Positions 145-48,332 of a DNA stretch of 48,332 bases are shown piece after piece; position 1 is the first letter of the stretch, and each line of letters starts with the position of its first letter. The translations under genes and the position numbers were made by a program. The notes beneath the pieces are model-generated. The model had not been told where the DNA came from, ran no database searches, and saw nothing but the letters and a program-made list of their open reading frames with translations. This DNA comes from an uncultured Bacteroidota bacterium (GTDB lineage Bacteria; Bacteroidota; Bacteroidia; Chitinophagales; LD1): positions 1-48,332 of the forward strand of contig CAIXBT010000167.1 in assembly GCA_903917755.1 (NCBI GenBank), written 5' to 3'.

Positions 145-1725
145 TTATATACCAGCCTCTGGATTGATCACTTCTGTTCTTTGCGGCTTTTTTTGTTTAA
201 AATACTCTACAAGCTTTCTTTCCACACGGTTTTCGTATCTGTTTGATAGGATACTGCGCACCATCCTCCCAAAGCGAATGGGCCGAAAGAGATAGTTCGA
301 GCTTAGAAAGGTCAAATTAGTTAGGAGTTCATAGAGCTTATACCAAGGTTCTGAAATCAGGTCGGTATAATATTTACCCTTCCCGTCTGAATGGAGGAAT
401 ACCAATTCCAGAAAGAAATCGTCATTCGATAAATCGATCCTCTTTTCATCTACCAGTTTGTCAAATAATACACTGCCGGGATAGGGATGGAAGCGCGATT
501 GCGTGATATCATTTACACCAGCCCAGCTGCACTGTATCAGGAACCATATCGTTCGCCATACATCTGCATGTGTTTCGCCCGGCAGTCCGATGATCATGTT
601 CAGGTTTATATATATTTTTTCTTTATGAGAGCTTCGCATCGACTTGAGCATGTTAGGCACCTTCACTTTTTTACGGATCAATTTGAGCAATGAAGGCGAA
701 CCCGTTTCGGGTGCATAGGTCACCTGACGGCAGCCTGACAGGTAGAGATTGCGTGCTACTTCCGAATCAATCACTTCCGATCTAGTTCCCACAGGCAATT
801 CCCAGATAACATTCAACTTTCTATTTATGATCTCTCGAGTAAAGGTCATTATCCATTCTTTTTTAAGAATGGCTGTAAGATCGTAAAAATCAAAACTCGT
901 GATGCCGTATGTCTGCATCATGTATTCCATCTCATTGATAATGTGAATAGGATTCCGCATATAATAACGGGTGCCCCACATCTGAGGGCTTGAGCAGAAA
1001 GTGCATGAATAAGGGCACCCCCTTGTGGCCAGTAGCGGGATTGATTTTTGGTTAGTATTGCCCCATCGTACTTCATATTTATGGTAATTTTCCATCGGGA
1101 AATATTCCCAAGCGGGCAATGGCATGTCATCCATATTTTTCACCCTCGTACGTCGTTTTGTTACAACTGCCTTACCGCTTTCACTATCTCGGTAGGCAAT
1201 TCCGTCTATATCCTTAAAATCTCCATGCTTTTCGATTGCCGCCAATAGGTCAACTATCGTTTCTTCTCCTTCGCCAAGCACACAAACATCAAGGTGTTTA
1301 GTTTGCTTCAGGCCTAATTCTGCCATGGCTGTAATACTCTCACCGCCAGCAACTATCAATGCCTGCGGAAACCGCTCACCTAAAAAATCAATCAGGTAGC
1401 GATCAAAAAGCCAATTGTTCGAAAACATTGCAGAAATGCCAATGATCTGCACGTCGACAGGAATTTTATTTGCTATTTCAATAGCGCTTAGTCCATTAAC
1501 ATATAACCTGTTGAGCGGCAATTGAACTTTAATGTCTAGGTGTATATCACCTATTGGATGGTAAGCCATTGGGCTTTCACCTATCGCGTCGATTACAGAT
1601 ACAGTGTGTCCAGCTTGTTTTAATGCCCCAGCAATAAATGCGAGGCCCAGAGCAGGAGTGTTATTGATTACAACCGATTCTTCTTTATCTCTGCACCGTG
1701 ATGGACGGATTAAACAAACATTCAT
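145..1725 (-). CDS. Cobalamin (B12)-binding radical SAM enzyme (class B methylase-like), paralog group A
   Basis: N-terminal Rossmann-like B12 domain (PALGLAFIAGAL...IGIS...AGGE...GEGEET), TRGCPYSCTFC CxxxCxxC motif, YAPETG, PYPGS. Confidence 0.92.
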   Translation of the reverse strand: MNVCLIRPSRCRDKEESVVINNTPALGLAFIAGALKQAGHTVSVIDAIGESPMAYHPIGDIHLDIKVQLPLNRLYVNGLSAIEIANKIPVDVQIIGISAMFSNNWLFDRYLIDFLGERFPQALIVAGGESITAMAELGLKQTKHLDVCVLGEGEETIVDLLAAIEKHGDFKDIDGIAYRDSESGKAVVTKRRTRVKNMDDMPLPAWEYFPMENYHKYEVRWGNTNQKSIPLLATRGCPYSCTFCSSPQMWGTRYYMRNPIHIINEMEYMMQTYGITSFDFYDLTAILKKEWIMTFTREIINRKLNVIWELPVGTRSEVIDSEVARNLYLSGCRQVTYAPETGSPSLLKLIRKKVKVPNMLKSMRSSHKEKIYINLNMIIGLPGETHADVWRTIWFLIQCSWAGVNDITQSRFHPYPGSVLFDKLVDEKRIDLSNDDFFLELVFLHSDGKGKYYTDLISEPWYKLYELLTNLTFLSSNYLFRPIRFGRMVRSILSNRYENRVERKLVEYFKQKKPQRTEVINPEAGI

Positions 1726-1779
1726 GATGTCATTTTTATATCAGCGTATTACACAACTCTTATTATAAACTCAGTTTCT

Positions 1780-1787
1780 CAAAGTTA
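1780..1787 (-). promoter_or_regulatory. Bacteroidota-type -7 promoter element (TAACTTTG)
   Basis: Exact TAnnTTTG match on the minus strand about 55 nt upstream of the 1725 start; the near-identical 16-mer recurs at 3524-3539. Confidence 0.6.
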
Positions 1788-1891
1788 GCAAATAAATAAG
1801 AAAAGCAATATCAACTCTTACATAGAATTATGCTCATGTATGATGAAAATTCCTCGTGTTAAATCATGAGTTTGTTGAGATCATCAACTAA

Positions 1892-3469
1892 TCATACCTG
1901 AGGCTCCAGCCTTTTTGATTTAAAACTTAGCTTTTCTGATTTTTGATTCAGATATTCTACTAAACTTCTTTCGGCCCTGTTTTCATAATTGCGTGTGATA
2001 AGGTTCCGCAATGTCTTGAAGAAACGTAAGGGCCTAAATAAATAATTAGTACCAAAAAAGACAACTACGGAAAACAACTCGTAAAAATTATACCAGCCGG
2101 TAGAAATCAGGTCATTATAATATTTATTCTTGCCAAAAGAGTCTATAAAGATCAGTTCAAAAAAGAAATCATCAGTAGAAAGATCAATCTTCTTTTCTTT
2201 AACTAATCTATCGAATAATGCGCTGCCAGGATATGGCTGGAATACTGACGGACTGATATCATTCACCCCAACCCAACTGCATTGGATCAGGAACCAAATA
2301 GTGCGCCATACATCTGCATGTGTTTCGTCCGGCATGGCCATGATCATATTTATGTATACAAACATTTTTTCTTCGTGAGAACTTCTCATGGACTGAAGCA
2401 TGTTTGAGATCTTAACCTTCTTTTTGATCAGTTTAAGCATTTTAGGTGATCCTGATTCGGGAGCATAAACTATGTGTCGGCATCCTGATAAATATAAATT
2501 ATGCGTTACTTCCGAATCGATCACTTCAGATCGCGTTCCGACCGGCAACTGCCAGGTTATGTCTAATTTTCTTTTTATTATTTCATTGGTAAATGCAATT
2601 ATCCAGGTTTTCTTTATGATGGCAGTAAGATCATAAAAATCAAAATTAGTGGCCCCATATTTGGCCTTCATGTATTCCATCTCATTCACCACACTCTCCG
2701 GATCACGCATATAATATCGGGTACCCCACATTTGAGGGCTACTGCAAAAAGTGCAAGAATAAGGACAGCCTCGGGTAGCCATTATCGGAATAGACCTTTG
2801 CTTGGTCACCCCCCATTTGATGTCATATTTTTCATAATTATCCATAGGGAAATACTCCCAGGCCGGCATGGCAATTTCCTCCATGTTTTTCATTCTAGTA
2901 CGCCGACTGGTGAAAACAGCTTTTCCGGTTTCCGGATCGCGAAACGCGAGACCATTCACTTGGTCAAATCTTTCTTTTTTTTCTATTGCAGATATTAGTT
3001 CTACAATGGTTTCCTCTCCTTCGCCCAATATACAGGCATCCAGATGTATTGTTTGATCTATGGCCATTTCTGCCATAGCTGTAATACTTTCGCCTCCAGC
3101 TACGATCACTGCCTGCTGAAAACGCTCACCCAAAAAATCAATTAAATAGCGATCAAATAACCAATTATTGGAGAACATGGCAGAAATGCCAATCACATCA
3201 ACTGAATTAGGAATTCTGTCAGCTATTCCTGCGGCGCTCAATCCATTAGTAAATATTCTATTGGCAGGCAGGTTTGCCTTAACGTTCAGCTCAAAACTGA
3301 TTGGATTAAATTCTTTTGGGCTTTCGCCGATAGCATCAATAACCGACACATTGTGCCCAGCCTGCTTCAATGCTCCTGCAATAAAAGCCAAACCTAAGGC
3401 AGGTGTATTAGTAATATTTATAGCGTCTTTATCTAAAAACCTAGGAGGACGTATAAGGACAATATTCAT
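1892..3469 (-). CDS. Cobalamin-binding radical SAM enzyme, paralog group A (tandem duplicate of 145..1725)
   Basis: TRGCPYSCTFCSSPQMWG; long identical stretches with the neighbour, e.g. GISAMFSNNWLFDRYLIDFLGERF and ETHADVWRTIWFLIQCSW. Confidence 0.92.
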   Translation of the reverse strand: MNIVLIRPPRFLDKDAINITNTPALGLAFIAGALKQAGHNVSVIDAIGESPKEFNPISFELNVKANLPANRIFTNGLSAAGIADRIPNSVDVIGISAMFSNNWLFDRYLIDFLGERFQQAVIVAGGESITAMAEMAIDQTIHLDACILGEGEETIVELISAIEKKERFDQVNGLAFRDPETGKAVFTSRRTRMKNMEEIAMPAWEYFPMDNYEKYDIKWGVTKQRSIPIMATRGCPYSCTFCSSPQMWGTRYYMRDPESVVNEMEYMKAKYGATNFDFYDLTAIIKKTWIIAFTNEIIKRKLDITWQLPVGTRSEVIDSEVTHNLYLSGCRHIVYAPESGSPKMLKLIKKKVKISNMLQSMRSSHEEKMFVYINMIMAMPDETHADVWRTIWFLIQCSWVGVNDISPSVFQPYPGSALFDRLVKEKKIDLSTDDFFFELIFIDSFGKNKYYNDLISTGWYNFYELFSVVVFFGTNYLFRPLRFFKTLRNLITRNYENRAERSLVEYLNQKSEKLSFKSKRLEPQV

Positions 3470-3585: not shown

Positions 3586-5184
3586 TCAAGCAACCTTAGA
3601 CTGGACAGTATCCGGAGGGGATTGATAGTGGCCAAATTCAACCGGGGTGACGACCTTGGTCGCTACGACATTGGTGATGCCTATCTTGCGCAGAAAAAAT
3701 TTCTTTAGATGAAAGAAATTATGAAAAGCGTATGTTTTAAATTCCGGGTTTTGCATCATAAAACCTGTGATAAGATCACAGAACATGGCTAATGGACGAA
3801 CCAAAAATCCAGGTATCCTTTGGATATGCTCGGGACGTATTTTCTTTTTGATCGAGTCGGGCAAAACAGGCATGATCCTGAATATCACCTCATAAGATTG
3901 ATAAAGGCGCATGAGCTTATCATCTTTGATATTCTCTGTATTTCTGAAAAAGAAGAAATCTTCTCCCTCGTTGATCTTTCGCTCCTGCTCTTCAGTGATC
4001 CTCTTTTTTGCTATCGCATCATTCATCATTTCTGTACCCGGCAGAAAGCAGGTCCAGAAGGTCTGAATTCGTTTTGTGCCGTGATTTGCATACAGGGCTC
4101 TGGCATTTTCCTGAGCGCTTATCGGTTCGTCAGGCAGACCAAACATATGGTCGACCTTCACATTCATTTTATACTTGTTCATAGCATCAATGGCTGCGCT
4201 CACATCCTCACTGCGCTCATATCTAAGCAGGTTTCCTTTTTTAAAATTCTCGTCCATTGACTGCACCCCCATCTGCACCCATTCACAGCCGGAATTGCTA
4301 AGCCATTTTGCTATATCGTCATCCATATAGCGTGGATGTGTCAATATTTGATAAGGCTTGTTTATTTCCTTCTTGTAGAGATAGAGAAAATCCTGCAGCC
4401 ATTTTTTGCTGGTCGTAAAAACATCATCCTGAAAATCCACCACTTTGATGTTATACCTTTTCTGAGCGATCTTAAGCTCTGCGATCATGTGTTCCGGGCT
4501 TCTCAGGCGAACATATTTTCCCGATTTTTCTTCAGGCAGTTTTGCGAAAAAGTTATTAAAACAAAAAGAGCAGCGATATGGGCATCCGCGTGAGGCCATG
4601 GTCAGATATAGATCACCCAGTCGGACATTCTCCTCCCACAGCGGCTTATCATAGAAAGGCAAAGAGTCGAGATCCTGAATAAAACCGGCTTGTATTCCCT
4701 GGATTATCAATCCATCTTTGGTTTTATATTTTGTGTTAGGTATCGGCTTATTGTAATTGGGGTCATTTATAGACTCTATGATCTGCGGGAAAGCCACATC
4801 ACCCTCGCCCACTACTACATAGTCGATAACCGGGCGCTTCAAAAGCAAGTGGGGTACTGCTGAAGCATGTACTCCCCCGAAAACTGTCTTTACATTGGGG
4901 TTGATCTCTTTGGCCCGGGATGCTATATCAAGTGCCCACTGATAGGTAGATGTAAGCGGTGAAAAAGCCAACAGGTCCGGTTGCTGCTTTTCGATAGACT
5001 TCATCACCTCATTGGTATCATCAAAAAACGAGGAGATACTTGGCATTTCGAGATTGAACCGGTCATGGAAAAGCGAAGCCGAAAAGGCCAGACCCACTGA
5101 ATGACCCCTCGATTTTGCGATGGCAGAGAGCATACTTATGCCTAGCTGTTCGGTGCCTAATGCTGCAAAAGTTACTTTAGCCAT
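3586..5184 (-). CDS. Cobalamin-binding radical SAM enzyme (distinct subfamily)
   Basis: QLGISMLSA...FGGVHAS...GEGD B12 domain; SRGCPYRCSFC; FQDDVF; MGVQS. Confidence 0.9.
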   Translation of the reverse strand: MAKVTFAALGTEQLGISMLSAIAKSRGHSVGLAFSASLFHDRFNLEMPSISSFFDDTNEVMKSIEKQQPDLLAFSPLTSTYQWALDIASRAKEINPNVKTVFGGVHASAVPHLLLKRPVIDYVVVGEGDVAFPQIIESINDPNYNKPIPNTKYKTKDGLIIQGIQAGFIQDLDSLPFYDKPLWEENVRLGDLYLTMASRGCPYRCSFCFNNFFAKLPEEKSGKYVRLRSPEHMIAELKIAQKRYNIKVVDFQDDVFTTSKKWLQDFLYLYKKEINKPYQILTHPRYMDDDIAKWLSNSGCEWVQMGVQSMDENFKKGNLLRYERSEDVSAAIDAMNKYKMNVKVDHMFGLPDEPISAQENARALYANHGTKRIQTFWTCFLPGTEMMNDAIAKKRITEEQERKINEGEDFFFFRNTENIKDDKLMRLYQSYEVIFRIMPVLPDSIKKKIRPEHIQRIPGFLVRPLAMFCDLITGFMMQNPEFKTYAFHNFFHLKKFFLRKIGITNVVATKVVTPVEFGHYQSPPDTVQSKVA

Positions 5185-5479: not shown

Positions 5480-6886
5480 ATGAATGTAGTCTTTCTTAAT
5501 CCCCCCCATGATACACGTATACAGCGTCGATTCATGTGCAGTTATAATGCGGCCAATATACTTTTGCCGCCTCAGGAGTTGATTGCATTGGGAGGGGTCT
5601 TGAGGTCTTTTGACAAATGCAAAACATTTCTGATCGACTCTATAGCCAGCCAGTTAAACACCCGGGCTACCATTGATAAACTCGTTTCGCTGAAACCTGA
5701 CATCATAGTGGCCATTCATGGCTTCGAATGTTTTGAAGAAGACATGAATGTCCTGGAAGAAATAAAGCAAACCATCCCTCAGTCCACGGTCATATTATTC
5801 GGACATTATGCCAGCATATTTCCGGAGGAAATACTCAAAAAAACAAGTATTGACATCATCATACTCGGAGAACCGGACAATATATTTGAATCCCTGATAG
5901 CGACCCTGCTCGAAAACAAAGACCTCGCAGGAGTGAGCGGGATCGCATATAAAGTGCAAGGGAATATCGTCGTCCAAAAAGGTGATGAACGTATCACACA
6001 TCCTGAGCTTCTGCCAATGCCGGCATATGAACTCCTTAACCCCGAAGAATATTTTGAGCCATTTCTCAAACCCCCATTCGGGCTCATTCAGAGTGCGCGT
6101 GGCTGTCCATACAGCTGCAATTACTGTGTTAGAAGTTTTGGCAAAAGACTCACATATCGGACCACCGACCAGATCATAGATGAGATCCTCTTTATGAAGG
6201 AAAAATTCGGCATACGGTCATTGCGATTCATTGATGATACTTTCACCGTACATACCAAGCGTGTCATAGAGATCTGTCAAAAGCTGATAGATCTGAAGAT
6301 CGGGATCGAATGGACCTGTCTGAGCCGGATAGATACGCTGCGCGAAGAAATGATCCCATGGATGAAAAAAGCAGGATGCAAGCGTATTTATTTTGGTGTG
6401 GAAAGCGGAAGCGCTAAAGTGCTGCATTATTTAAATAAAGATACTGACCTCGGTCAGGCCATCACTACATTGCATACTTGCAAAAAATACGGTATTGAAA
6501 CCTTAGGTTTCTTTCTGGTGGGTACTCCGGGCGAGGAGCAGGAGGACTTTAATGCCAGTGTCAATTTTGCGATCCAAGCTGATTTTGATTACATCATTGC
6601 CGGCGAACTAATACCATACCCCGGTACCGAGCTATATGAAAAATTCAAGGAGCAGGTTGATTTCTCGCTTTTCCCATATAAGAATGAGTGGAAGGACCCG
6701 TCCATTAAAGTCAAAAACGGCGAGAAGGAAAAGGAATTTTACAGAAGGTTTTACTATCGAAAGAAATACATAGTTAAGAGTGCTCAAAAGATGATCGAAC
6801 ATCCCTGGGAGTATCTGGATAATTTCAGAAAGCTATCGAGTTTCATGATGACCTCGCAGAAAAGTAAGCGCCAGGATTATATTTAA
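5480..6886 (+). CDS. Cobalamin-binding radical SAM enzyme
   Basis: MNVVFLNPP...PPQELIALGG B12 domain, ARGCPYSCNYC, FIDDTF, FGVESGS, PYPGT. Confidence 0.9.
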   Translation: MNVVFLNPPHDTRIQRRFMCSYNAANILLPPQELIALGGVLRSFDKCKTFLIDSIASQLNTRATIDKLVSLKPDIIVAIHGFECFEEDMNVLEEIKQTIPQSTVILFGHYASIFPEEILKKTSIDIIILGEPDNIFESLIATLLENKDLAGVSGIAYKVQGNIVVQKGDERITHPELLPMPAYELLNPEEYFEPFLKPPFGLIQSARGCPYSCNYCVRSFGKRLTYRTTDQIIDEILFMKEKFGIRSLRFIDDTFTVHTKRVIEICQKLIDLKIGIEWTCLSRIDTLREEMIPWMKKAGCKRIYFGVESGSAKVLHYLNKDTDLGQAITTLHTCKKYGIETLGFFLVGTPGEEQEDFNASVNFAIQADFDYIIAGELIPYPGTELYEKFKEQVDFSLFPYKNEWKDPSIKVKNGEKEKEFYRRFYYRKKYIVKSAQKMIEHPWEYLDNFRKLSSFMMTSQKSKRQDYI

Positions 6887-7835: not shown

Positions 7836-7839
7836 ATAG

Positions 7840-8730: not shown

Positions 8731-8752
8731 ATTGCTATAATTCTTATTCCTT

Positions 8753-10678: not shown

Positions 10679-10688
10679 TGTCGTAGGA

Positions 10689-11606: not shown

Positions 11607-11642
11607 AAATTGATTTTTTATAAAATTAATCAAAAGCAAGGA

Positions 11643-15213: not shown

Positions 15214-15217
15214 GATC

Positions 15218-27487: not shown

Positions 27488-27503
27488 TATGTTAATTTTA
27501 AAG

Positions 27504-36430: not shown

Positions 36431-36507
36431 GCGATTCTATTAATAATATAAAAAGGTTAAATTTACTCAGGTGAGATCCCTGTCCTTTTTATACCTAATA
36501 CGTAAAA

Positions 36508-38073: not shown

Positions 38074-38126
38074 CCTACCTGTGCTTAAGATAAATAATTC
38101 GTTCTATAAGTTCCCTAGAAATTTCT

Positions 38127-39872: not shown

Positions 39873-39946
39873 AAAACAACTTCTGAAATAATAAAATCGC
39901 ATCAAATTTATAGTTGTATAAAATAAAGTGCCTATCTTGCTATTGC

Positions 39947-40786: not shown

Positions 40787-40868
40787 TTTTTCGGATGATA
40801 TTAAATATTGAAATTCTGCTAATTTTTGACTCTAAATCAATGCCTGTGATATTAATAAATGTGCCAGT

Positions 40869-41768
40869 ATGAATAAGATACCTGCGATCTTTATAGATAA
40901 AGAACTTCAATCTTCTTTTGAAAAGGATGGATTTGTCAAGATACCCCTACTGAATGAAGAGCAGGTAAATGAACTGACAACGCTTTTTGATGACACTTAC
41001 GGAGAACATGCTACGGTTACTACATTTCATCATACCACTACTGACACTCAAAATCCCGATCTGATATATCGTGTTGATACCCAGATCAAATCTGTTTTCT
41101 CGTCCTCATTAGAAAAGTTTCTTACTGATTTTAAGCCTTTGGTAGGGTGCTTCCATATTAAGGAGGTTGGGCTCAAGTCTGAGACCGGCATTCATCAAGA
41201 TCCAACTTTCGTCGATGAATCAAAATACTGCAGTGCAAATATATGGGTAGCTCTGCATGATATAGATGAAAGAAACGGAAACCTATTCTTTATTAAGGGC
41301 TCTAACCATGTAGTACCTGCACTTCGGGTAACCCCAAGATCACCCAACTACTTCGACGATTTTCAGGATATATTGCCTGCCTTGGCGGTGCATGTGCCAT
41401 TAAAAAAAGGAGAAGCCGTTATTTTTAATAATGCCACTATCCACGGTGCCACAAAAAATCTCTCAGATAAAGTTAGGCTCGCTTCGACACTATTAATTTG
41501 TTCAGCGCCGGCTGACTGGTTATTGTATTATCAGGATGAAAATACGCCCTCAGGCAAAATAGAGGAATACAAATTAGATCTGGATGCCTTTGTAACCATG
41601 CCAAAAGATGGAAGACCCGTCAGCAGGTCATTCAATCAATATATTACAACAAAATTTCCTAAGATTTCAAAGGAATATTTTCTCCGAAAAATAAAAATGG
41701 GGGAGGATCAGAATGATAGCTACCTTCAAAAGGTAATTAATGTTTTTAGAATGAAAAGCTCGCGATGA
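40869..41768 (+). CDS. PhyH-family Fe(II)/2OG dioxygenase
   Basis: FEKDGF, HQDP, WVALHD, KGSN, IHGA, R. Confidence 0.88.
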   Translation: MNKIPAIFIDKELQSSFEKDGFVKIPLLNEEQVNELTTLFDDTYGEHATVTTFHHTTTDTQNPDLIYRVDTQIKSVFSSSLEKFLTDFKPLVGCFHIKEVGLKSETGIHQDPTFVDESKYCSANIWVALHDIDERNGNLFFIKGSNHVVPALRVTPRSPNYFDDFQDILPALAVHVPLKKGEAVIFNNATIHGATKNLSDKVRLASTLLICSAPADWLLYYQDENTPSGKIEEYKLDLDAFVTMPKDGRPVSRSFNQYITTKFPKISKEYFLRKIKMGEDQNDSYLQKVINVFRMKSSR

Positions 41769-41830
41769 AAAAGATCCAAGAGCAAATCGGTCTGGCCATA
41801 TTTTGAGTGCCATCTTAAAGAAAGTAAAAA

Positions 41831-42709
41831 ATGAAAGCACTTTTTAGTTCAGATGAACTGCAAAAAAAATTTGAAGCAGATGGCTATGTGCAAATACCTT
41901 TGCTAACTCAGGCAGAGGTATATGAGCTAATGACTGAATACAAAGCAGTGTCTGAGGCGCATGAAAAAATTAATATCCCCTATATCACTACCAGCCACTC
42001 CAATAATGCAGAATTGATCCATCATGTAGATGCTGTATTACAAAAGGTAATAGCTCCCGCTGTCGATAAATATTTGAAAAACTATAACCTGCTGTTCGGC
42101 AACTATCTCGTCAAAATGCCCGGCAACGGATCAGAGACAATGCCACATCAGGATATTACATTTGTCGATGAATCTCAGTATGCCTCAGTCAATATATGGG
42201 TAGCCCTGCAGGACACCAATGAGGAAAACGGATGTATGTATTTTCTGAAAGGCAGTCATAATCTGATGCCGACGCTAAGACCGACACATGATTATCCATG
42301 GGTATATTCGAATGTGATCGATGATATAAAAAGGAGGTCCGAAAAATACCCTGCCAAAGCGGGAGATGCCTTTATTTTCAATCATGCTGTGATCCATGGC
42401 TCATATCCCAACAACACCAATCTGCCCAGAATAGCAGCTGTCATCGCAGGGTATCACAGCGATGCTCCACTACTGCACTATTATCTTCCGGTGGGAGAGT
42501 CTAATAAAGTGGAAAAATATAGCATGACCAAGGAGGCCTATCTTCATTTTAAAAAGGGGCAACCTCCTGCCAAAGGAGTTCTTTTAGGTGAAATAAATTA
42601 TGATTTTTATCAAATAGACAAAAAAGAATTTAAATTACTTTTAAGAAATAATTCAAACCGGAATTCAATACTGAATTCCGTATCCGATTTTTTTAAAAAA
42701 CTGATATAG
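41831..42709 (+). CDS. PhyH-family Fe(II)/2OG dioxygenase
   Basis: FEADGY, HQDI, WVALQD, NGCM..LKGSH, IHGS, R. Confidence 0.88.
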   Translation: MKALFSSDELQKKFEADGYVQIPLLTQAEVYELMTEYKAVSEAHEKINIPYITTSHSNNAELIHHVDAVLQKVIAPAVDKYLKNYNLLFGNYLVKMPGNGSETMPHQDITFVDESQYASVNIWVALQDTNEENGCMYFLKGSHNLMPTLRPTHDYPWVYSNVIDDIKRRSEKYPAKAGDAFIFNHAVIHGSYPNNTNLPRIAAVIAGYHSDAPLLHYYLPVGESNKVEKYSMTKEAYLHFKKGQPPAKGVLLGEINYDFYQIDKKEFKLLLRNNSNRNSILNSVSDFFKKLI

Positions 42710-42716
42710 TAACGAT

Positions 42717-43640
42717 ATGGCTAAGCCAAGAGTATTTCGTGATGAAAAGTTGCAAAGCGAATTTAATGAAAATGGCTTTGTCAAATTTAAGCTGCTGTCT
42801 GAAGCGCAAATACACCGTATTGATGACTTTTATCTTAAAACACAGGAACAGCATGAAATCGTTATTGATAAGAAAAAATTTCACGCTACTAATGATACTG
42901 ATAATCCTGAATTGATAGCCAAGGCTGATAGTTTTATCAAAGAAGTGATGGGTGAAGAGATCGACAAGCATTTTTTCAATTATAAAACGATCGCCGCAAG
43001 TTATCTGGTTAAACAACCCTCAGATGCTTCAGGGCTGGGCCCCCATCAAGACCTCCGTTTTGTCGATGAAGAAAAGTTCTACTCGTTTAATATCTGGATA
43101 GCCACAGAAGCCACAAATAAAACCAATGGTTGTCTCCGGTTTCTAAAGGGCAGTCACAAATTATATGATACTATTCGTCCTTTACCGACTTATCCCTGGA
43201 AGTATAAAAGCGTAGCATCTATCATCCCCGATTATTTTACAGATGTTCCTACCGAGAAAGGTGAATGTATTATACTCAATCATGCCTGCATACATGCATC
43301 CTATCCGAATCTATCAGACCACACGAGAGTAGCGGCCATTGTAGCTATGATACCGCAGGAAGCGGACATTCTGCATTATTTTCTGCCCGAAAGCGATCCC
43401 AAAAATAAGGTAGAAAAATATAGCATGACACTAGATGATTTTATTAATCTAAAAGGAGGCCAAAGGCCGGAAAATGCCAAATTGATAGATAGCTTTGATT
43501 TTGATTTTTCTCCCATCGAGGTTGACCCATTTGTTAAATGGCTACAACAAAATAACCCCGATAAGAAGCCGGGGCCGGCAGCCAATAATGGATCTGAATC
43601 TCTGGGCAGAAAATTGTTGTCCTTATTTAAGAAAAAGTAA
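42717..43640 (+). CDS. PhyH-family Fe(II)/2OG dioxygenase
   Basis: FNENGF, HQDL, NGCL..LKGSH, IHAS, R. Confidence 0.88.
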   Translation: MAKPRVFRDEKLQSEFNENGFVKFKLLSEAQIHRIDDFYLKTQEQHEIVIDKKKFHATNDTDNPELIAKADSFIKEVMGEEIDKHFFNYKTIAASYLVKQPSDASGLGPHQDLRFVDEEKFYSFNIWIATEATNKTNGCLRFLKGSHKLYDTIRPLPTYPWKYKSVASIIPDYFTDVPTEKGECIILNHACIHASYPNLSDHTRVAAIVAMIPQEADILHYFLPESDPKNKVEKYSMTLDDFINLKGGQRPENAKLIDSFDFDFSPIEVDPFVKWLQQNNPDKKPGPAANNGSESLGRKLLSLFKKK

Positions 43641-43707: not shown

Positions 43708-44589
43708 ATGCAAACAATAGAAGAGACCACTACGATTTCAGGGGAAAATATTTTTTTTAATTTTATTGAAGTCCCCTTTGACAAACTCTCAGAATCGGGA
43801 GACCTTATCAAAAAAATTAAGGATGGAGAAGTCCATGGGTTTGTATTGAAAAACCTTTTTACCCAACAGGAGATCACCGATCTGCTCGCTGCGATCGAAA
43901 AGCCACTTGAAGAAAAGGCAATGCCCACTCCATCCGGTAAAATGTTTCCTGCTCCATTTGCCATAGTCACTAATGCTACTGAGCGACTGGATGCTTATTA
44001 TGAATCTATTGACACTATCCATGAGCTGATGGACCGTGAACCGATCGTGCAAATGGTCCGCGACAGAATTGAATCCTTTTTTAAGGCCGTAGGAAGTAAT
44101 TACAAAGTAAGTGTGCCCATCAATAAAGAAAAAGGTCTTCCTGTGTCTGAGGGCTGCTTCAGGGTGTTCTTTAAAGACAAAGGAGGGCTGTTCGTACATT
44201 GCGGAAACCTCTTTCAAAAACAATCTGAATATTACTATTCCCTGTTGGATCATGACATTGATATGAGTGACCAGCTTAGTTTTTTCTTCTGCCTGCAGAA
44301 TACCGAAGTAGGGGGCGAACTGACGATCTATGACATGCTTTGGAAAGATGTAAAAAACAAAGTCACCCCTGACGAAAACAATTCTGTGATAGCTGACACC
44401 GGAGAGACTATCTATCTCAAGGATCTGCCCCAGTTTACTGTAAAACCACTGCCGGGAGATATACTCGTCTTTTCAGGAGGGCCTATCTGGCACCGTGTAG
44501 AAAACATAAAAGGTGATACCGCCCGTATCACATACGGTGGTTTTGTCAATTTCTCAAAAGATGGAAAAGAAGTTTTTTACTGGTCCTGA
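43708..44589 (+). CDS. WelO5/AmbO5-like carrier-protein-independent Fe(II)/2OG halogenase candidate
   Basis: H164-C-G166 (HxG, no carboxylate ligand), distal H262, R273; SDQLS, GGEL..Y, PGD.L.F.GG...HRV and R.T.GGF..FSK.....YWS match WelO5 motifs as I recall them. Confidence 0.78.
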   Translation: MQTIEETTTISGENIFFNFIEVPFDKLSESGDLIKKIKDGEVHGFVLKNLFTQQEITDLLAAIEKPLEEKAMPTPSGKMFPAPFAIVTNATERLDAYYESIDTIHELMDREPIVQMVRDRIESFFKAVGSNYKVSVPINKEKGLPVSEGCFRVFFKDKGGLFVHCGNLFQKQSEYYYSLLDHDIDMSDQLSFFFCLQNTEVGGELTIYDMLWKDVKNKVTPDENNSVIADTGETIYLKDLPQFTVKPLPGDILVFSGGPIWHRVENIKGDTARITYGGFVNFSKDGKEVFYWS

Positions 44590-44601: not shown

Positions 44602-46317
44602 TTATCCTGATATCGAGGGCAATAACGAGAGATTTGTTTCGATCAGTTTGTAATCGATCCCGTCATATACATTTGGCATTTCTCCGACCTTAGTTGCCCG
44701 GTTTATCAGTTCATTGTTGTTTGTCCACTCGTCCTTCAGATAGTAATCACTATCTTCTTTATAAATACTGACCAGCGCCTTTTCTTCATTTTCGCATACG
44801 AAACTGTAGTAATCAGATTTAGTGTGTGTCAGCCTTATACAGAAGCATATACGATCTTCATCAGTCTGATTTGGTAGAGCATCATGTATCAGCCTTAGAT
44901 CAAAAAGTACCGCCTGCCCTGCTTTAAGGTTGAAAATCTTTTTCCTCCTGACAAACTCAGGTATAAGTGATATATATGGCCATTTCAGCCCATTGACAAA
45001 CATGACATGCGAAAATTTATGGCTTTTCTCGATCGCACATAGGGCACCATTTTTTTCATTGACATCGATCAAAGGACACCATATACCATAATGCGGTTCC
45101 AAATGCGTGTTTAGTAATAAGGATGTGTCATTATGCCAGGTGAGATTGCCTTCTGATTTTGCATATTTAGTAAAAAAGCTGGCAATCGGTGTCAGGTAAT
45201 CATTAAAATACTTGTCCAAAGCCGGTCTCGCTGTCCCTATAATGAAATCATGTATATATCTTTTGGTAGCAGGTGTGGTATGCTCCATAGGAGTAAATCT
45301 GCCGATAGAGGTATGAGAAGAACTGAACAGTTTGATATATTCTGCTTTCAAAGCAGCTACTTCCTTGTCATTTAGCAAATCTATAACGACAAAACCATCA
45401 CGATACATTTTTTTCTCCAGGTCACCATCTCGCAGCAAGTGCAATTGTATCGGTTCAAAACCTTTTTCATCGGTGCCAAAATATGCTTTGAATTTCTGCA
45501 CCAGATCGATCGATGTGAGTTTTGAATTATCGATCAGATTAATGGCTTGCTCTGCTTTGCTTATAGGATTCACTGGCGCGCCACCCTTCTCTAAGCTGCC
45601 CAGTGAACTTAAAAAAATGGCCGGATCAATGGTATATACATCGGTCTTATTTTCCTTTGTGTTTTTTTGAAAATATTGAAGCGGAGCGTTTTTTTGATAA
45701 ATACTCACGATAGCAGAAACTCTATTTTGTCCCGACAGATTAGGATATGAGGCATGAAAAAGCGAATTGTGATATACTAGTACATCTCCCGGTGGGATGA
45801 TCATATCAGCCACATACGGCTTAACGGTCTCATCGGTGTTTATCATAGGCATATCATAGGTCCCGGAACGCAAGTTCTGAAAAAAATGATGGCTGCCGGG
45901 CAATACGATCATTCCTCCATTGGCGGGGTAGGATAGCTCCAATGGGATCCATATTTGATAACTCGTGTATTGATCTTCATCCACTATATTCCAGTCCTGA
46001 TGCAGCGGGAGTTCTCTGCTCGTATTTGCTCCCTTGACCATAAATCCTGATATAAAAAAATCAAAGTTTTCAAATGTCCTGGTCAGAGAAGGCATTAATA
46101 TATCCTTGATCTTATTGCGGATCAATAGGCTCTCCTCCGGTGAGGTTCTGCTATGACTGGCAGCTACTCCTGATACATTCTTCTCAAGCACAAACTGCTC
46201 ATATACCGACCCAATGCTTTTTATTTGCTCCGCATTAAGAAGTGGGATCATGCAAAAGCCAAGTTCATCCAGAGCTTTTGCATAGTCCTTGTCAATAATC
46301 AGTGAATCCTTGGCCAT
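44602..46317 (-). CDS. Tandem two-domain PhyH-family Fe(II)/2OG dioxygenase
   Basis: Domain 1 HQDW..PGSH..FHAS..R; domain 2 RDGF..HNDT..KSH..IHDA..R. Confidence 0.88.
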   Translation of the reverse strand: MAKDSLIIDKDYAKALDELGFCMIPLLNAEQIKSIGSVYEQFVLEKNVSGVAASHSRTSPEESLLIRNKIKDILMPSLTRTFENFDFFISGFMVKGANTSRELPLHQDWNIVDEDQYTSYQIWIPLELSYPANGGMIVLPGSHHFFQNLRSGTYDMPMINTDETVKPYVADMIIPPGDVLVYHNSLFHASYPNLSGQNRVSAIVSIYQKNAPLQYFQKNTKENKTDVYTIDPAIFLSSLGSLEKGGAPVNPISKAEQAINLIDNSKLTSIDLVQKFKAYFGTDEKGFEPIQLHLLRDGDLEKKMYRDGFVVIDLLNDKEVAALKAEYIKLFSSSHTSIGRFTPMEHTTPATKRYIHDFIIGTARPALDKYFNDYLTPIASFFTKYAKSEGNLTWHNDTSLLLNTHLEPHYGIWCPLIDVNEKNGALCAIEKSHKFSHVMFVNGLKWPYISLIPEFVRRKKIFNLKAGQAVLFDLRLIHDALPNQTDEDRICFCIRLTHTKSDYYSFVCENEEKALVSIYKEDSDYYLKDEWTNNNELINRATKVGEMPNVYDGIDYKLIETNLSLLPSISG

Positions 46318-46566: not shown

Positions 46567-47865
46567 ATGAAACCAGAGAGTGAAATAGCCATTGAAATTA
46601 AACACCTGTCAAAGGAATTTCACATTGTGAAGAATAAGGAGACTGAAGGCAACCAGGGCCAGCCTTTTTATGCTTTGCGTGATATTTCATTTACGCTCTA
46701 CAAAGGTGATGTCATCGGCATCATAGGAAGTAATGGCTCAGGCAAAACAACCCTTTTAAAGATACTCAGTCAGATCACTAAACCTACTTCCGGAGAAGCT
46801 CATTTTTATGGTACAGTGACCTCCATTTTGGATATAGGTAGCAATTTTCACCCAGACCTGAGTGGACGGGAGAATGTGTCGATGCAACTAAAATTAGCCG
46901 GGGCTCAGAAGAGTGAATTTGATGCCTTCTATAATAAAATAAAGGAGTTCAGCGAGGTCGGTGACTTTTTTGATCAGCCATTAAAATTTTATTCAAGTGG
47001 GATGTTTTTGAGATTAGCTTTTTCAATAGCATTTCATTTATCCTCAGATATCTTGATACTGGATGAGGTGCTCTCGGTGGGAGATGAGGGCTTCAGGCTG
47101 AAATGTCAGGAATTATTAAAGCTTTTTACCGAGATGGGAAAGACGATCCTGTTTGTATCGCACAACAGGATGGAAATACTTGAACTAAGCAATAAGTGCA
47201 TCTGGCTTGAAAAAGGAGAGATCAAGAGGATCGGTTCTCCATCTATGGTCCTGGGTGAGTATTTTACCATGCATCGTGACAACTATGATGGCAAAAAAAT
47301 AATCATTGATATCGAAGCAAATAACGGTGATAACCAGAATAGTAGTCTGGGTTTAATAGATCTGTCCTGGTCCGAAGAGGACGCACCGGGAAATGATATT
47401 TTATCCATTCGGAGTGTATCTGTGAAGCCATCCATGCTTAATGACAGGATCTATCATAACGACTCCATCTCTATGAAATTTGTGATCCACAAAAAAAAGA
47501 AAGGTATTAATATCGGGCCTTTCTTCTTTTTGCAAGATGTCTTTTATCAGCCTGTACTCGTCGGGCATTTCTTAAATAATACCACTGATCAGAACCTGAG
47601 TAGTCTGATAAAAAATGAAACCGGCCTGATCGAGATCAACTGCTCCATACCAGCGGGATTTCTCTTTCCCGGCAAATACTATTTACTGCTACGGTTTGGA
47701 ATGGAAGAAAATGAATGGAACACTGAATCACAGGAGGCATTCAGGTTCTCCGAGAAGCTTCATTTCATAGTGCATGCTGAACCCGGCCATACCGATTTCA
47801 TCGGGGATATGAGCAAAGGATCTGTAAGACCGGCATTGGACTGGGAAATAAAAAAACACCTATAG
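46567..47865 (+). CDS. wzt: ABC polysaccharide exporter ATP-binding subunit with C-terminal (Wzt-C-like) domain
   Basis: Walker A GSNGSGKTT, FHPDLSGREN, signature YSSGM..RLAF, Walker B ILILDE, VSH; about 170-aa beta-rich C-terminal extension (PG.Y). Confidence 0.9.
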   Translation: MKPESEIAIEIKHLSKEFHIVKNKETEGNQGQPFYALRDISFTLYKGDVIGIIGSNGSGKTTLLKILSQITKPTSGEAHFYGTVTSILDIGSNFHPDLSGRENVSMQLKLAGAQKSEFDAFYNKIKEFSEVGDFFDQPLKFYSSGMFLRLAFSIAFHLSSDILILDEVLSVGDEGFRLKCQELLKLFTEMGKTILFVSHNRMEILELSNKCIWLEKGEIKRIGSPSMVLGEYFTMHRDNYDGKKIIIDIEANNGDNQNSSLGLIDLSWSEEDAPGNDILSIRSVSVKPSMLNDRIYHNDSISMKFVIHKKKKGINIGPFFFLQDVFYQPVLVGHFLNNTTDQNLSSLIKNETGLIEINCSIPAGFLFPGKYYLLLRFGMEENEWNTESQEAFRFSEKLHFIVHAEPGHTDFIGDMSKGSVRPALDWEIKKHL

Positions 47866-47866
47866 G

Positions 47867-48331
47867 TCAAAACAGCTGTTTGATCTTATTCAAAAGATGT
47901 CTCTTCCAAAAAGCATTCATTCTGCCGTCTATATATTCTACCTCTTTAGTTGAGAGTTTTTTTTCTCGCTGTCCGGTTTGCGGACGCTGAAAATGCTCAT
48001 AACGAATATAAAACCCCGGGTCATCTACACTATATAATTCGATCTCATCAGTACCCTCCAGCTGAAAATAATGCAGCCATGGGGTGGCTGAGGCCGGCTT
48101 TAAAGAAAAATTGATGGCAGGACGTATCTTTTCTGTTTTATTGGGTGGCGAATAGTGAAGCAGAGCATGATCATATATGATGGCATCTCCTGCTTTCATC
48201 GGAATCAGCTTCCCATAGCGCTTAGCCCATTCATTGTCATGTATCCGTGCGCTCTGCCTTATTCCCGGCCCGCGGATAGCATTAGTGACCTTATGAGAAC
48301 CTTCTATTATTCCCAGACAGCCATTTTGAGC
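47867..48331 (-). CDS. PhyH-family Fe(II)/2OG dioxygenase, 5'-partial (continues beyond the window)
   Basis: Frame open to the window edge: AQNGCLGIIEGSHK...MKAGDAIIYDHALLHYSPPN....R. Confidence 0.85.
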   Translation of the reverse strand, partial: AQNGCLGIIEGSHKVTNAIRGPGIRQSARIHDNEWAKRYGKLIPMKAGDAIIYDHALLHYSPPNKTEKIRPAINFSLKPASATPWLHYFQLEGTDEIELYSVDDPGFYIRYEHFQRPQTGQREKKLSTKEVEYIDGRMNAFWKRHLLNKIKQLF

Positions 48332-48332
48332 A

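What the first reader, a model, noticed from the sequence alone, without database searches (positions are those of the whole stretch)
145..48332. Scaffold-less tailoring mega-cluster: 7 B12-radical SAMs and 16 Fe/2OG domains coupled to a Wzm/Wzt glycan exporter
Seen: 7 cobalamin-binding radical SAMs, 1 SPASM-type radical SAM, 12 PhyH domains, 3 AspH-like enzymes, 1 WelO5-like enzyme and a desaturase. They are interleaved with wzm, wzt, GT2s, GT-C-like proteins, SGNH and a sugar dehydrogenase. No PKS/NRPS, cyclase, RRE, peptidase-transporter or clear precursor is present. Known: class B radical SAMs methylate unactivated C or P, Fe/2OG enzymes hydroxylate or halogenate C-H bonds, and Wzm/Wzt export lipid-linked glycans; ordinary O-antigen or capsule loci carry few or none of these radical enzymes. 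Inference: a pathway I do not recognise that builds a surface glycan or glycolipid, or a substituent on it, by extensive radical C-H functionalisation. An alternative is polytheonamide-style modification of a peptide or protein encoded outside the window.
Basis: partly seen in the sequence, partly recalled or inferred. Interest (0 to 1): 0.92.

Follow-up and report, generated by a model that had tools for sequence, protein, structure and literature searches.

The report
Radical-enzyme-rich cell-surface glycan locus
This contig is the middle of a very large, conserved but uncharacterised gene island in a Bacteroidota-like bacterium that most likely builds a heavily methylated, hydroxylated and perhaps chlorinated cell-surface sugar polymer, using an unusual number of radical enzymes.

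Summary
Pfam confirms 7 B12-type radical SAM genes (5 pass the B12-binding cut-off, 2 are weak), 1 SPASM/twitch-like radical SAM, 12 PhyH domains in 10 genes, 3 AspH-like genes, 1 WelO5-like gene with the halogenase H-x-G motif, a desaturase-like gene, an ABC-2 permease, a TagH/Wzt-like ATPase, 2 GT2s, a GFO oxidoreductase and an SGNH protein.

"Scaffold-less" is an assembly artefact. The window is a whole contig of a 430-contig MAG. Other contigs (C99, C134, C338, C50) and intact loci in same-genus genomes add:
- sugar-nucleotide enzymes
- more glycosyltransferases
- a UbiA prenyltransferase
- an ACP with a FabH-like gene
- a flippase-like protein
- a PMT_2-TPR GT-C

No PKS, NRPS or conserved precursor peptide was found.

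The gene set recurs in 6 of 10 same-genus genomes and 14 of 24 same-family genomes. It also occurs in a second family, where wzm and wzt bracket a PhyH array.

Best reading (about 0.55): radical C-H tailoring of polyprenyl-phosphate-linked sugars or glycans, then ABC export or flipping, then transfer outside the membrane.

Substrate and chemistry are inferred. The "GT-C-like" label for g29 and g32 rests on topology only. No description was found in seven literature searches.

The parts
1..100 (.). End of a multicopy IS-like repeat; the assembly breaks here
   Evidence: 98-100% identical copies at the ends of 9 other contigs, including the right end of C99, plus a 91% partial match on a tenth
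145..3469 (-). g01 (145-1725) and g02 (1892-3469): B12-binding radical SAMs of the 'B12a' family, 68% identical paralogues
   Evidence: Pfam Radical_SAM plus B12-binding over cut-off. Paralogy. CPYSCTFC motif. No NCBIfam cut-off reached.
3586..5184 (-). g03: B12-binding radical SAM, 'B12b' type
   Evidence: Pfam 68.5 and 67.7 bits. 67-77% identical orthologues in G004-G006.
5480..6886 (+). g04: radical SAM with weak B12 domain, 'B12c' type. Best model is HpnJ, far below cut-off.
   Evidence: Radical_SAM 82.3 bits. B12-binding 22.2 bits. HpnJ 190.8 bits against cut-off 577.6.
6930..11639 (-). PhyH array g05, g06, g07 (two domains) and g08, co-directional with wzm. The g05 start is probably at 7835.
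   Evidence: Pfam PhyH 62-156 bits. HQD...H triad. The block Wzm-PhyH-PhyH2-PhyH-PhyH is conserved in G004, G005 and G006.
11643..12482 (-). g09: ABC-2 permease (Wzm-like)
   Evidence: PF01061 43.6 bits. 6 TM segments. Best NCBIfam model is galactan Wzm at 44.8 bits, below cut-off 380.
12739..16907 (+). g10 AspH-like, g11 B12a radical SAM, g12 AspH-like, g13 AspH-like
   Evidence: Pfam. B12a-AspH adjacency recurs in relatives. Closest solved relative of g10 is human AspH, E 4e-17.
17032..19763 (-). g14 membrane-anchored pentahaem cytochrome c, and g15 radical SAM with weak B12 domain ('B12d')
   Evidence: 5 CXXCH motifs. Weak cytochrome Pfam hits. The pair is seen in L020, and the cytochrome without B12d in L060. 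The cytochrome (g14) was absent from G004-G006 at E<=1e-2, and no B12d-labelled hit appeared there.
19818..20687 (-). g16: lipoprotein-like secreted protein of no family
   Evidence: No Pfam, NCBIfam or PHROG hit. One relative, in L014.
20728..26420 (-). Two DUF1501/DUF1800 pairs, about 60% identical paralogues
   Evidence: Pfam. Paralogy. Such pairs lie inside the loci of G004, G005 and G006.
26612..27514 (-). g21: secreted Gly-rich, tail-fibre-like protein. Not conserved in sister loci.
   Evidence: Signal-like N-terminus. Some relatives carry Collar, Peptidase_S74 or Collagen domains. No hit in G004-G006.
28749..31709 (-). g24 membrane-anchored SGNH, g25 GT2 (236 aa), g26 GFO/IDH/MocA oxidoreductase
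   Evidence: Pfam. Best model for g26 is UDP-GlcNAc 3-dehydrogenase, 167.8 bits against cut-off 450. The GFO-GT2a pair is conserved.
31976..39851 (+). Operon-like run: g27 GT2 (polyprenyl-P-hexose-synthase-like), g28 SPASM/twitch-like radical SAM, g29 10-TM protein, g30 membrane di-iron desaturase/hydroxylase-like, g31 B12a radical SAM, g32 9-12-TM orphan protein
   Evidence: Pfam. Best models for g27 are AglJ 120, Dol-P-hexose transferase 85 and PpgS 78 bits, all below cut-off. The same order is seen in L025. The g32 family has 3471 representatives, no Pfam domain and no PDB match.
39914..43640 (+). Four tandem PhyH genes, g33-g36
   Evidence: Pfam 64-95 bits. Closest solved relatives of g35 are SnoN, MysH, EvdO2 and SnoK.
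43708..44589 (+). g37: WelO5-family Fe/2OG enzyme with halogenase-type H-x-G
   Evidence: PF22814 179 bits. H-C-G aligns with H-V-G of WelO5 structures.
44602..46317 (-). g38: double-domain PhyH protein
   Evidence: Pfam, 2 stretches. Alignment.
46567..47865 (+). g39: Wzt/TagH-like ABC ATPase with an unassigned 190-aa C-terminal domain
   Evidence: ABC_tran. TagH 179.5 bits and Wzt/RfbE 148.9 bits, both below cut-off. The C-terminus has no PDB match.
47867..48332 (-). g40: PhyH gene cut by the contig end
   Evidence: Pfam 41.1 bits. Full-length orthologue next to wzt in G006, and in the corresponding flank of G004.

Best explanation
The window is the central 48 kb of an accessory cell-envelope glycoconjugate locus. 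In this MAG the locus is broken over at least five contigs and totals roughly 90 kb or more.

Proposed mechanism:
1. Sugars are activated and pre-tailored by nucleotide-sugar enzymes encoded on sister contigs.
2. Sugars are loaded on polyprenyl phosphate by small GT2s of the Dol-P/Und-P-hexose-synthase type (g27, g25) and extended by further GTs.
3. The lipid-linked sugar or glycan, or an acyl or amino-acyl substituent on it, is functionalised at unactivated C-H bonds on the cytoplasmic face. The enzymes are a battery of B12-type radical SAMs (C-methylation or rearrangement), SPASM/twitch radical SAMs, about 16 Fe/2OG hydroxylase domains, one halogenase-type WelO5 relative and a membrane di-iron enzyme.
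4. The product is exported by Wzm/Wzt or a flippase-like protein.
5. It is installed on a periplasmic or surface acceptor by polytopic membrane proteins: PMT_2-TPR on C99 and the orphan g29 and g32 families.
6. Secreted DUF1800/DUF1501, SGNH and arylsulfotransferase-like proteins act afterwards.

Shown: gene content, intact catalytic motifs, conservation and linkage.

Inferred: the substrate, each chemistry, the order of steps, and that g29 and g32 are transferases.
For: (1) Context.
- G000 contigs C134 and C338 carry a DegT aminotransferase, an NAD epimerase/dehydratase, an AsnB-like amidotransferase, a carbamoyltransferase and a CN-hydrolase. They also carry a GNAT, GT2, a DXD GT, a CMAS-like methyltransferase, a UbiA prenyltransferase, a FabH-like gene and N-terminal-twitch radical SAMs.
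- C134 also has a 75-aa ACP-like ORF.
- The flanks of the same-genus loci G004 and G006 carry the same genes.
- C99 adds a flippase-like LPG_synthase_TM protein, a PMT_2-TPR GT-C, 2 JmjC, an AspH, a PhyH, an ASST-like gene and 2 more B12a genes.

(2) Linkage to export.
- Wzm and Wzt are present in all 3 same-genus loci inspected in full, with Wzm co-directional with 4 PhyH genes.
- In another family, G190 has Wzm-PhyH-MT-PhyHx5-Wzt on one strand.

(3) g27's best models are all polyprenyl-phosphate glycosyltransferases (AglJ, Dol-P-hexose transferase, PpgS). g26's best model is UDP-GlcNAc 3-dehydrogenase.

(4) A cross-phylum minimal module.
- In a Vicinamibacterales locus, B12a is followed directly by a PMT_2 GT-C, with a SPASM radical SAM and a GT2b-like tblastn match nearby.
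- GT2 co-occurs with B12a in 28 of 75 loci.
- 36 of 75 loci have an ORF of >=430 aa with >=8 TM segments within 3 kb of B12a. The G000 background is about 0.18 such ORFs per 7.5 kb.

(5) Closest solved relatives act on sugars.
- For PhyH g35: SnoN, EvdO2 and SnoK.
- For the B12a profile: AprD4.

(6) By hydropathy, none of the PhyH, AspH, WelO5-like or radical SAM proteins has an N-terminal hydrophobic segment, so they should act before export.
Against: - No initiating phosphoglycosyl transferase, ligase or polymerase was identified in the window, and none was searched for genome-wide.
- Wzm and Wzt score well below the NCBIfam cut-offs. Wzt lacks a recognisable Wzt_C domain.
- g29 and g32 show no sequence relation to the PMT_2 family or to any solved structure. 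The fold test could not be run.
- The closest solved relatives of the AspH-like and JmjC proteins are protein hydroxylases: human AspH, JMJD5, FIH and JMJD6.
- No radical SAM reaches any equivalog cut-off, so C-methylation is not established.
- The gene order differs between genomes, so the genes may form several cassettes rather than one pathway.
Confidence: 0.55

Rival explanations
1. A secreted protein or ribosomal peptide is the substrate. It is hydroxylated by AspH, JmjC and PhyH, C-methylated by the B12 radical SAMs, then exported and possibly glycosylated or sulfated. Two published models fit this idea: the polytheonamide type, and the Iyer et al. 2010 proposal of beta-hydroxylase, PhyH and sulfotransferase acting on tail-collar or Gly-rich secreted proteins.
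For: - The closest solved relatives of g10 are human AspH. Those of the C99 JmjC are JMJD5, FIH and JMJD6.
- The window encodes g21, a secreted Gly-rich protein. Some of its relatives carry Collar, Peptidase_S74 or Collagen domains.
- ASST-like genes lie in the locus.
- PMT_2-TPR enzymes are protein O-glycosyltransferase-like (family knowledge, recalled).
- Iyer et al. predicted such neighbourhoods (PMC2938197, passages read).
- A conserved S/T/G-rich T9SS Ig-repeat protein lies in the flank.
Against: - g21 and g16 have no counterpart in the three same-genus loci, even at E<=1e-2.
- The only small ORF conserved in 4 same-genus loci is ACP-like.
- There was no NHLP match, but that control was uninformative.
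- RiPP radical SAM models are far below cut-off: rSAM_ocin_1 at 102 against 281.85 bits, ApyD at 135 against 750 bits.
- No leader peptidase, RRE or peptidase-ABC exporter was seen.
- The ASST type here differs from the PAPS-type sulfotransferases in the Iyer neighbourhoods.
Confidence: 0.15
2. A membrane lipid is the target rather than a sugar. Candidates are an acyl chain, an amino-lipid or the polyprenol carrier itself. The result would be a poly-methylated, poly-hydroxylated lipid or glycolipid head group, by analogy with hopanoid side-chain tailoring or lipid A hydroxylation.
For: - A membrane di-iron desaturase/hydroxylase-like g30.
- An ACP-like ORF and a FabH-like gene.
- Membrane-anchored SGNH proteins.
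- An LPG_synthase_TM protein.
- g04's best model is HpnJ, and several radical SAMs hit the 'lipid biosynthesis B12/rSAM' model weakly.
- A class III aminotransferase in sister loci.
- LpxO and OlsC are AspH-family lipid hydroxylases (recalled, not tested).
Against: - No squalene-hopene cyclase was found in a 96.7% complete genome.
- All lipid-related radical SAM models are far below cut-off.
- No lipid synthase beyond the FabH-like gene and the ACP-like ORF was seen.
- The surrounding genes are overwhelmingly carbohydrate enzymes.
- The closest solved PhyH relatives act on sugars.
Confidence: 0.12
3. This is not one pathway. It is a hypervariable island that pools several independent modification cassettes, each decorating a different envelope acceptor and each gained or lost separately. 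Examples are Wzm-PhyHxN-Wzt, GT2-rSAM-membrane protein-B12a-membrane protein, and B12a-AspH-membrane protein.
For: - The same families occur in different orders and copy numbers in G004, G005, G006 and G190.
- Distribution is patchy within the genus, 6 of 10.
- A tRNA gene lies at the border, and an IS-like repeat lies at the window end.
- G000 has four extra B12a paralogues (g01, g02 and two on C99) about 68% identical to each other.
- The B12a/GT2/SPASM/GT-C module exists alone in other phyla.
Against: - The cassettes stay physically together over about 48 kb in all three same-genus loci and in another family.
- AspH and PhyH were linked to B12a in 18 and 17 of 28 loci I labelled Bacteroidota, and in 0 of 47 others. 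This suggests a co-adapted set.
Confidence: 0.18

Closest known systems
ABC-transporter-dependent (Wzm/Wzt, TagGH) polysaccharide pathways
   Same: An ABC-2 permease plus a TagH/Wzt-like ATPase with an extra C-terminal domain, embedded among GTs and sugar-tailoring genes.
   Different: Scores are below the family cut-offs, and no Wzt_C domain was detected. In my recollection such loci carry at most an isolated oxygenase, for example the PhyH-like XAC3597 in X. citri (PMC3130047, passages read). Here wzm and wzt sit beside arrays of 4-6 PhyH genes plus 7-9 B12 radical SAMs.
Polyprenyl-phosphate-sugar plus GT-C periplasmic glycosylation (ArnC/ArnT, GtrB/GtrA/GtrC, PpgS/Rv3779, UbiA/DPA with Emb/Aft or TfpW). 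These names are recalled.
   Same: Small GT2s whose best models are Pol-P-hexose synthases, a flippase-like protein, a PMT_2-type GT-C, a UbiA prenyltransferase and several large polytopic membrane proteins.
   Different: No known system of this kind interposes B12 radical SAMs, SPASM radical SAMs or Fe/2OG arrays. g29 and g32 are not detectably GT-C by sequence.
Aminoglycoside and oligosaccharide natural-product tailoring (AprD4, GenK-type B12 radical SAMs, BtrN, KanJ, SnoN/SnoK, EvdO2)
   Same: The same combination of enzyme families acting on sugars. The closest solved relatives of B12a and PhyH come from this set. The roles of GenK, BtrN and KanJ are recalled.
   Different: Similarity is remote (E 1e-10 to 5e-17). 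Here the enzymes are tied to an envelope exporter and membrane transferases, not to a diffusible antibiotic pathway.
Polytheonamide/proteusin RiPP maturation
   Same: Several B12 radical SAMs together with Fe/2OG hydroxylases.
   Different: No precursor, leader family or conserved small ORF was found. The RiPP radical SAM models are far below cut-off, and the context is glycan genes.
Hopanoid side-chain tailoring HpnI/J/K/L/O (recalled)
   Same: GT2, an HpnJ-like B12 radical SAM, an LPG_synthase_TM protein and a class III aminotransferase occur together.
   Different: HpnJ scores 190.8 bits against a cut-off of 577.6. No squalene-hopene cyclase was found in the genome.
Iyer et al. 2010 predicted beta-hydroxylase/PhyH/sulfotransferase neighbourhoods with tail-collar or Gly-rich proteins (PMC2938197)
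   Same: AspH-like and PhyH genes lie together with a secreted tail-fibre-like protein (g21) and sulfotransferase-like genes.
   Different: g21 is not conserved in sister loci. The radical SAMs, the ABC exporter and the GT genes are not part of that description in the passages I read.

Membership tests
Wzm/Wzt ABC-transporter-dependent glycan export | ABC-2 permease of the Wzm/TagG/KpsM type | tested here: inconclusive
   PF01061 scores 43.6 bits, over the cut-off of 26.9. NCBIfam galactan Wzm scores 44.8 bits against a cut-off of 380, and KpsM 28 against 300.
Wzm/Wzt ABC-transporter-dependent glycan export | Wzt/TagH-type nucleotide-binding subunit | tested here: inconclusive
   TagH scores 179.5 bits against 320, and Wzt/RfbE 148.9 against 400. 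These are the two best-ranked kinds among 170 hits.
Wzm/Wzt ABC-transporter-dependent glycan export | Wzt C-terminal carbohydrate-binding domain (only some members have one) | tested here: not met
   No Wzt_C hit in Pfam at E<=1e-3. Residues 240-432 have no PDB match better than E 0.82.
Wzm/Wzt ABC-transporter-dependent glycan export | Initiating phosphoglycosyl transferase, polymerising GTs and a ligase in the genome | not tested
   Only GT2 and DXD GTs were seen. WecA/WbaP and WaaL were not searched.
Polyprenyl-P-sugar / GT-C periplasmic glycosylation | GT2 polyprenyl-phosphate glycosyltransferase | tested here: inconclusive
   The best models for g27 are AglJ 120 against 325, Dol-P-hexose transferase 85 against 375 and PpgS 78 against 370 bits. 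This is the right kind of enzyme, but below cut-off.
Polyprenyl-P-sugar / GT-C periplasmic glycosylation | GT-C fold transferase | tested here: met
   This is met on the sister contig only. The C99 936-aa protein scores 30.8 bits for PMT_2 against a cut-off of 26.1, and carries TPRs. A PMT_2 gene lies next to B12a in L037.
Polyprenyl-P-sugar / GT-C periplasmic glycosylation | g29 and g32 belong to GT-C | tested here: not met
   This was tested by sequence only. hhalign against the PMT_2 family gave probabilities of 10.7% and 0.4%. There is no Pfam hit and no PDB hit.
Class B (cobalamin) radical SAM methyltransferases | CxxxCxxC radical SAM core plus N-terminal B12-binding domain | tested here: met
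   5 of 7 pass both Pfam cut-offs, and 2 of 7 have sub-threshold B12 domains. The motif is present in all.
Class B (cobalamin) radical SAM methyltransferases | Methyl transfer rather than another radical chemistry | not testable with these tools
   The best models mix non-methylases (BchE, HpnJ, AprD4) with methylases, and all are below cut-off.
WelO5-type carrier-independent halogenases | WelO5 family membership and Gly in place of the carboxylate ligand (H-x-G) | tested here: met
   PF22814 scores 179.2 bits against a cut-off of 27. H-C-G aligns with H-V-G of the WelO5-family chain 8aut. Halogenation itself is untested.
Proteusin / polytheonamide-type RiPP | Precursor with an NHLP/Nif11 leader, or any conserved small ORF in the locus | tested here: not met
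   There was no TIGR03793 match in G000, but the control rang in 0 of 14 genomes, so this is weak. Nif11 was not searched. The only small ORF conserved across 4 same-genus loci is ACP-like.
Proteusin / polytheonamide-type RiPP | RiPP C-methyltransferase subfamily membership | tested here: not met
   TIGR03975 scores 102.1 bits against a cut-off of 281.85 for g01, and lower for the others.
Hopanoid side-chain tailoring (HpnIJKL) | HpnJ equivalog and a squalene-hopene cyclase in the genome | tested here: not met
   HpnJ scores 190.8 bits against 577.6. PF13243 has no match in G000, which is 96.7% complete.

The most novel reading that the evidence does not exclude
This is a previously undescribed mode of envelope glycoconjugate biosynthesis.
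- Polyprenyl-phosphate-linked sugars are remodelled at unactivated carbons. The remodelling enzymes in this genome's locus are 9 B12 radical SAMs, several SPASM/twitch radical SAMs, more than 20 Fe/2OG domains and a halogenase.
- The product is then installed by a new, large family of polytopic membrane transferases, the g32 family, which has 3471 representatives and no Pfam or PDB relative.
- The result would be a poly-C-methylated, hydroxylated and possibly chlorinated and sulfated surface polymer with no known structural counterpart.
Probability: 0.3. Interest if true: 0.9.

Novelty: new variant of a known kind. Interest (0 to 1): 0.78.

Why it matters
Radical C-H chemistry on bacterial surface glycans is almost unexplored.

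A conserved locus that spends tens of kilobases on B12 radical SAMs and Fe/2OG enzymes tied to a glycan exporter predicts sugars or substituents of a kind not yet seen in LPS, capsule or glycoprotein chemistry. These would be C-methylated, multiply hydroxylated and possibly chlorinated.

It would give substrates to large unassigned branches of class B radical SAMs and bacterial PhyH, AspH and JmjC enzymes. It would also give a function to an orphan membrane-protein family with thousands of members.

Ecologically, the product is a patchy accessory trait, as expected for a target of phage or grazer selection. It would also make the cell surface dependent on cobalamin and O2.

Tried and rejected
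Tried and negative:
- Anammox or ladderane idea: no hydrazine synthase alpha in G000.
- Hopanoid tailoring: no squalene-hopene cyclase, and HpnJ is far below cut-off.
- Proteusin precursor: no NHLP match, but the control rang nowhere. The screen of 216 intergenic small ORFs across 4 same-genus genomes found only an ACP-like ORF and tRNA shadows.
- Rfam: 0 matches in the window.
- PHROGs: only one weak hit, E 0.0017, among 6 proteins of the 26.6-28.4 kb region and g16.
- g29 and g32 as GT-C: two profile-profile comparisons and three PDB sequence searches were negative.
- Wzt C-terminal domain: no PDB relative.
- 16S rRNA was not found in the MAG.

Literature: seven searches found no description of such a locus. 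Only PMC2938197 and PMC3130047 were opened, and only passages were read. All other papers were seen as search listings only. Supplements were not seen, and Figure 4 and the supplementary data of PMC2938197 may list related neighbourhoods.

Limits of the counts:
- The TM counts use a crude Kyte-Doolittle window.
- The ORF clustering used 25 of the 75 loci plus the window and C99.
- A2 used 22 sequences. A5 used 2 of G000's own proteins plus 43 of the 150 listed hits.
- The 'Bacteroidota' label for 28 loci comes from record titles, and one of them (L017) is titled only 'uncultured bacterium'.
- The genome search scored at most 9 PhyH candidates per genome.

Full report
**What is there.**
The window is the whole of contig C167 of a 4.05-Mb, 430-contig MAG that is 96.7% complete. 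ORF listing and four Pfam scans give about 40 genes.

- Seven genes are radical SAMs with an N-terminal B12-binding domain. Five pass both cut-offs. g15 (21.9 bits) and g04 (22.2 bits) have weak B12 domains.
- All seven, and the eighth radical SAM g28, carry CxxxCxxC.
- Ten genes carry 12 PhyH domains. All 11 complete domains keep the H-x-D...H triad. The twelfth is cut by the contig end.
- Three genes are AspH-like.
- One is a WelO5-family protein whose H-C-G aligns with the H-V-G of the WelO5-family chain 8aut. This is the halogenase signature.
- Also present are a desaturase-like membrane di-iron protein, an ABC-2 permease, a TagH/Wzt-like ATPase, two small GT2s, a GFO oxidoreductase and an SGNH protein.

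No radical SAM reaches any NCBIfam equivalog cut-off. Rfam finds nothing.

**The contig is only part of the locus.**
The left 100 bases are the end of a repeat that also ends at least 9 other contigs, among them C99.

- C99 carries two more B12a genes, about 69% identical to g01. It also has two JmjC/Cupin_8 genes, an LPG_synthase_TM flippase-like protein, an AspH, a 568-aa paralogue of g32, an arylsulfotransferase-like protein, a 936-aa PMT_2-TPR protein and a PhyH.
- C50 carries two PhyH genes after a tRNA.
- C134 and C338 carry a 75-aa ACP-like ORF, a FabH-like gene, GT2, GNAT, a T9SS Ig-repeat protein and DegT. They also carry an amidotransferase-like protein of no Pfam family, a CN-hydrolase, a carbamoyltransferase, PhyH, a CMAS-like methyltransferase and UbiA. 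Further genes there are AsnB-like, an NAD epimerase/dehydratase, a DXD GT and N-terminal-twitch radical SAMs.

By tblastn, the locus in this genome holds 9 B12 radical SAMs and more than 20 Fe/2OG domains.

**Conservation.**
The g32 protein finds relatives in 6 of 10 other genomes of the genus and in 14 of 24 of the family. It finds none in 16 other families of the order sampled in that call. Its family profile matches 4 of 300 other genomes in an even sample of the phylum.

Three same-genus genomes were inspected over 80 kb each (G004, G005, G006). All carry about 48 kb with the same families in a rearranged order. The stable blocks are:
- Wzm-PhyH-PhyH2-PhyH-PhyH-GFO-GT2
- B12a-AspH-membrane protein
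- DUF1800-DUF1501
- SPASM-g29 and LPGtm/JmjC/AspH

These lie beside WelO5, PMT_2-TPR and Wzt genes. The run GT2-SPASM-g29-desaturase-B12a-g32 is seen in the window and in L025. The flanks carry the glycan genes listed above.

In another family of the order, G190 has Wzm-PhyH-MT-PhyHx5-Wzt on one strand. It also has B12a x2, B12c x2, AspH, four N-twitch radical SAMs, UbiA and the DXD GT.

Among 75 loci fetched with the B12a profile, out of at least 535 relatives:
- AspH and PhyH accompany B12a in 18 and 17 of the 28 loci I labelled Bacteroidota, and in 0 of 47 others.
- GT2 accompanies it in 28 of 75, and a SPASM radical SAM in 13 of 75.

In a Vicinamibacterales locus, B12a is followed directly by a PMT_2 GT-C.

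**What it most likely does.**
The context is carbohydrate throughout.
- g27's best models are polyprenyl-phosphate hexose or HexNAc synthases. g26's best model is UDP-GlcNAc 3-dehydrogenase.
- The closest solved relatives of a PhyH are SnoN, MysH, EvdO2 and SnoK.
- The closest solved relative of the B12a profile is AprD4, followed by CysS, TokK, TsrM and OxsB.
- By hydropathy, the PhyH, AspH, WelO5-like and radical SAM proteins lack N-terminal hydrophobic segments. They should therefore act before export.

I therefore read the locus as follows. Sugars or glycans are assembled on polyprenyl phosphate. They are tailored by radical enzymes at the cytoplasmic face. They are exported by Wzm/Wzt or flipped. 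They are then transferred outside the membrane by PMT_2-TPR and perhaps by the orphan g29 and g32 proteins, with secreted DUF1800/DUF1501, SGNH and ASST-like proteins acting afterwards.

Only content, motifs, conservation and linkage are shown. Substrate, chemistry and order of steps are inferred.

**Evidence against, and rivals.**
- The AspH-like and JmjC proteins are closest to protein hydroxylases among solved structures.
- g21 is a secreted tail-fibre-like protein. This recalls the neighbourhoods that Iyer et al. predicted to modify such proteins (PMC2938197, passages read).
- However, g21 and g16 have no counterpart in the sister loci, and the only conserved small ORF is ACP-like.
- A lipid target is suggested by the di-iron enzyme, the ACP with the FabH-like gene, and the HpnJ-like best hit. 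But there is no squalene-hopene cyclase and no lipid model near its cut-off.
- The rearranged order and patchy distribution allow a mosaic of cassettes rather than one pathway.
- g29 and g32 could not be tied to GT-C by sequence. The g32 family has 3471 representatives at E<=1e-3, and the 62 relatives listed carry no Pfam annotation.

No fold-level test was possible, and no earlier findings were consulted.

**Verdict.**
This is a real, conserved and very unusual locus. Its 'scaffold-less' premise and its peptide alternative are not supported. I found no description of it in seven literature searches.

Noticed in passing
window 1-100: End of a multicopy IS-like repeat. It also terminates at least 9 other contigs of the MAG, including the right end of C99, and explains why the locus is fragmented.
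   Followed up: partly
window 17032-19763: A membrane-anchored pentahaem cytochrome c (5 CXXCH) sits directly beside a radical SAM with a weak B12 domain. The pair recurs in L020, and the cytochrome recurs in L060. Neither was detected in the same-genus loci (g14 re-tested at E<=1e-2). A periplasmic-facing cytochrome next to a cytoplasmic radical SAM is unexplained.
   Followed up: partly
window 19818-20687 and 26612-27514: Two secreted proteins of no family share a short G-x-[IV]-L-T...W-x-S motif. They are the only ORFs in the genome with it, but the motif was derived from them, so the count is circular. Some relatives of g21 carry Collar, Peptidase_S74 or Collagen domains.
   Followed up: partly
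window 27515-28748: A 1.2-kb stretch with only short ORFs (99 and 85 aa). They have no Pfam hit, one weak PHROG hit (E 0.0017) and no counterpart in sister loci. It may be a remnant or an insertion.
   Followed up: partly
window 6930-7940: The listed g05 ORF overlaps g06 by 100 nt. Alignment with paralogues suggests the true start is the ATG at 7835.
   Followed up: yes
window 20728-26420; also G004, G005, G006: DUF1800/DUF1501 pairs are duplicated here and recur inside the same-genus loci. G006 has three DUF1800 and two DUF1501 genes. This suggests that the widespread unknown pair acts on an exported glycoconjugate.
   Followed up: partly
G000 C134 1480-1707 (outside the window): A 75-aa ACP-like ORF before a FabH-like gene is the only small ORF conserved in all four same-genus loci.
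   Followed up: partly
L093 12940-18790 (G006); G000 C338: Four tandem radical SAMs have the SPASM/twitch domain at the N-terminus. The NCBIfam N_Twi_rSAM model scores 166.4 bits against a cut-off of 170. They lie next to the UbiA and DXD-GT genes.
   Followed up: no
L094 2737-7155 (G006); G000 C134 about 6503-8362: A 1472-aa S/T/G-rich Ig-repeat protein with a T9SS sorting domain is conserved in the flank of the locus. It is a possible glycosylation acceptor.
   Followed up: no
L031, L075, L080 and other loci: B12a relatives at 35-44% identity occur in loci titled SAR116, Pelagibacteraceae, Nitrospina, Omnitrophota, Elusimicrobia and Vicinamibacterales. They are mostly without the Fe/2OG genes. 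The family is much wider than this locus.
   Followed up: partly
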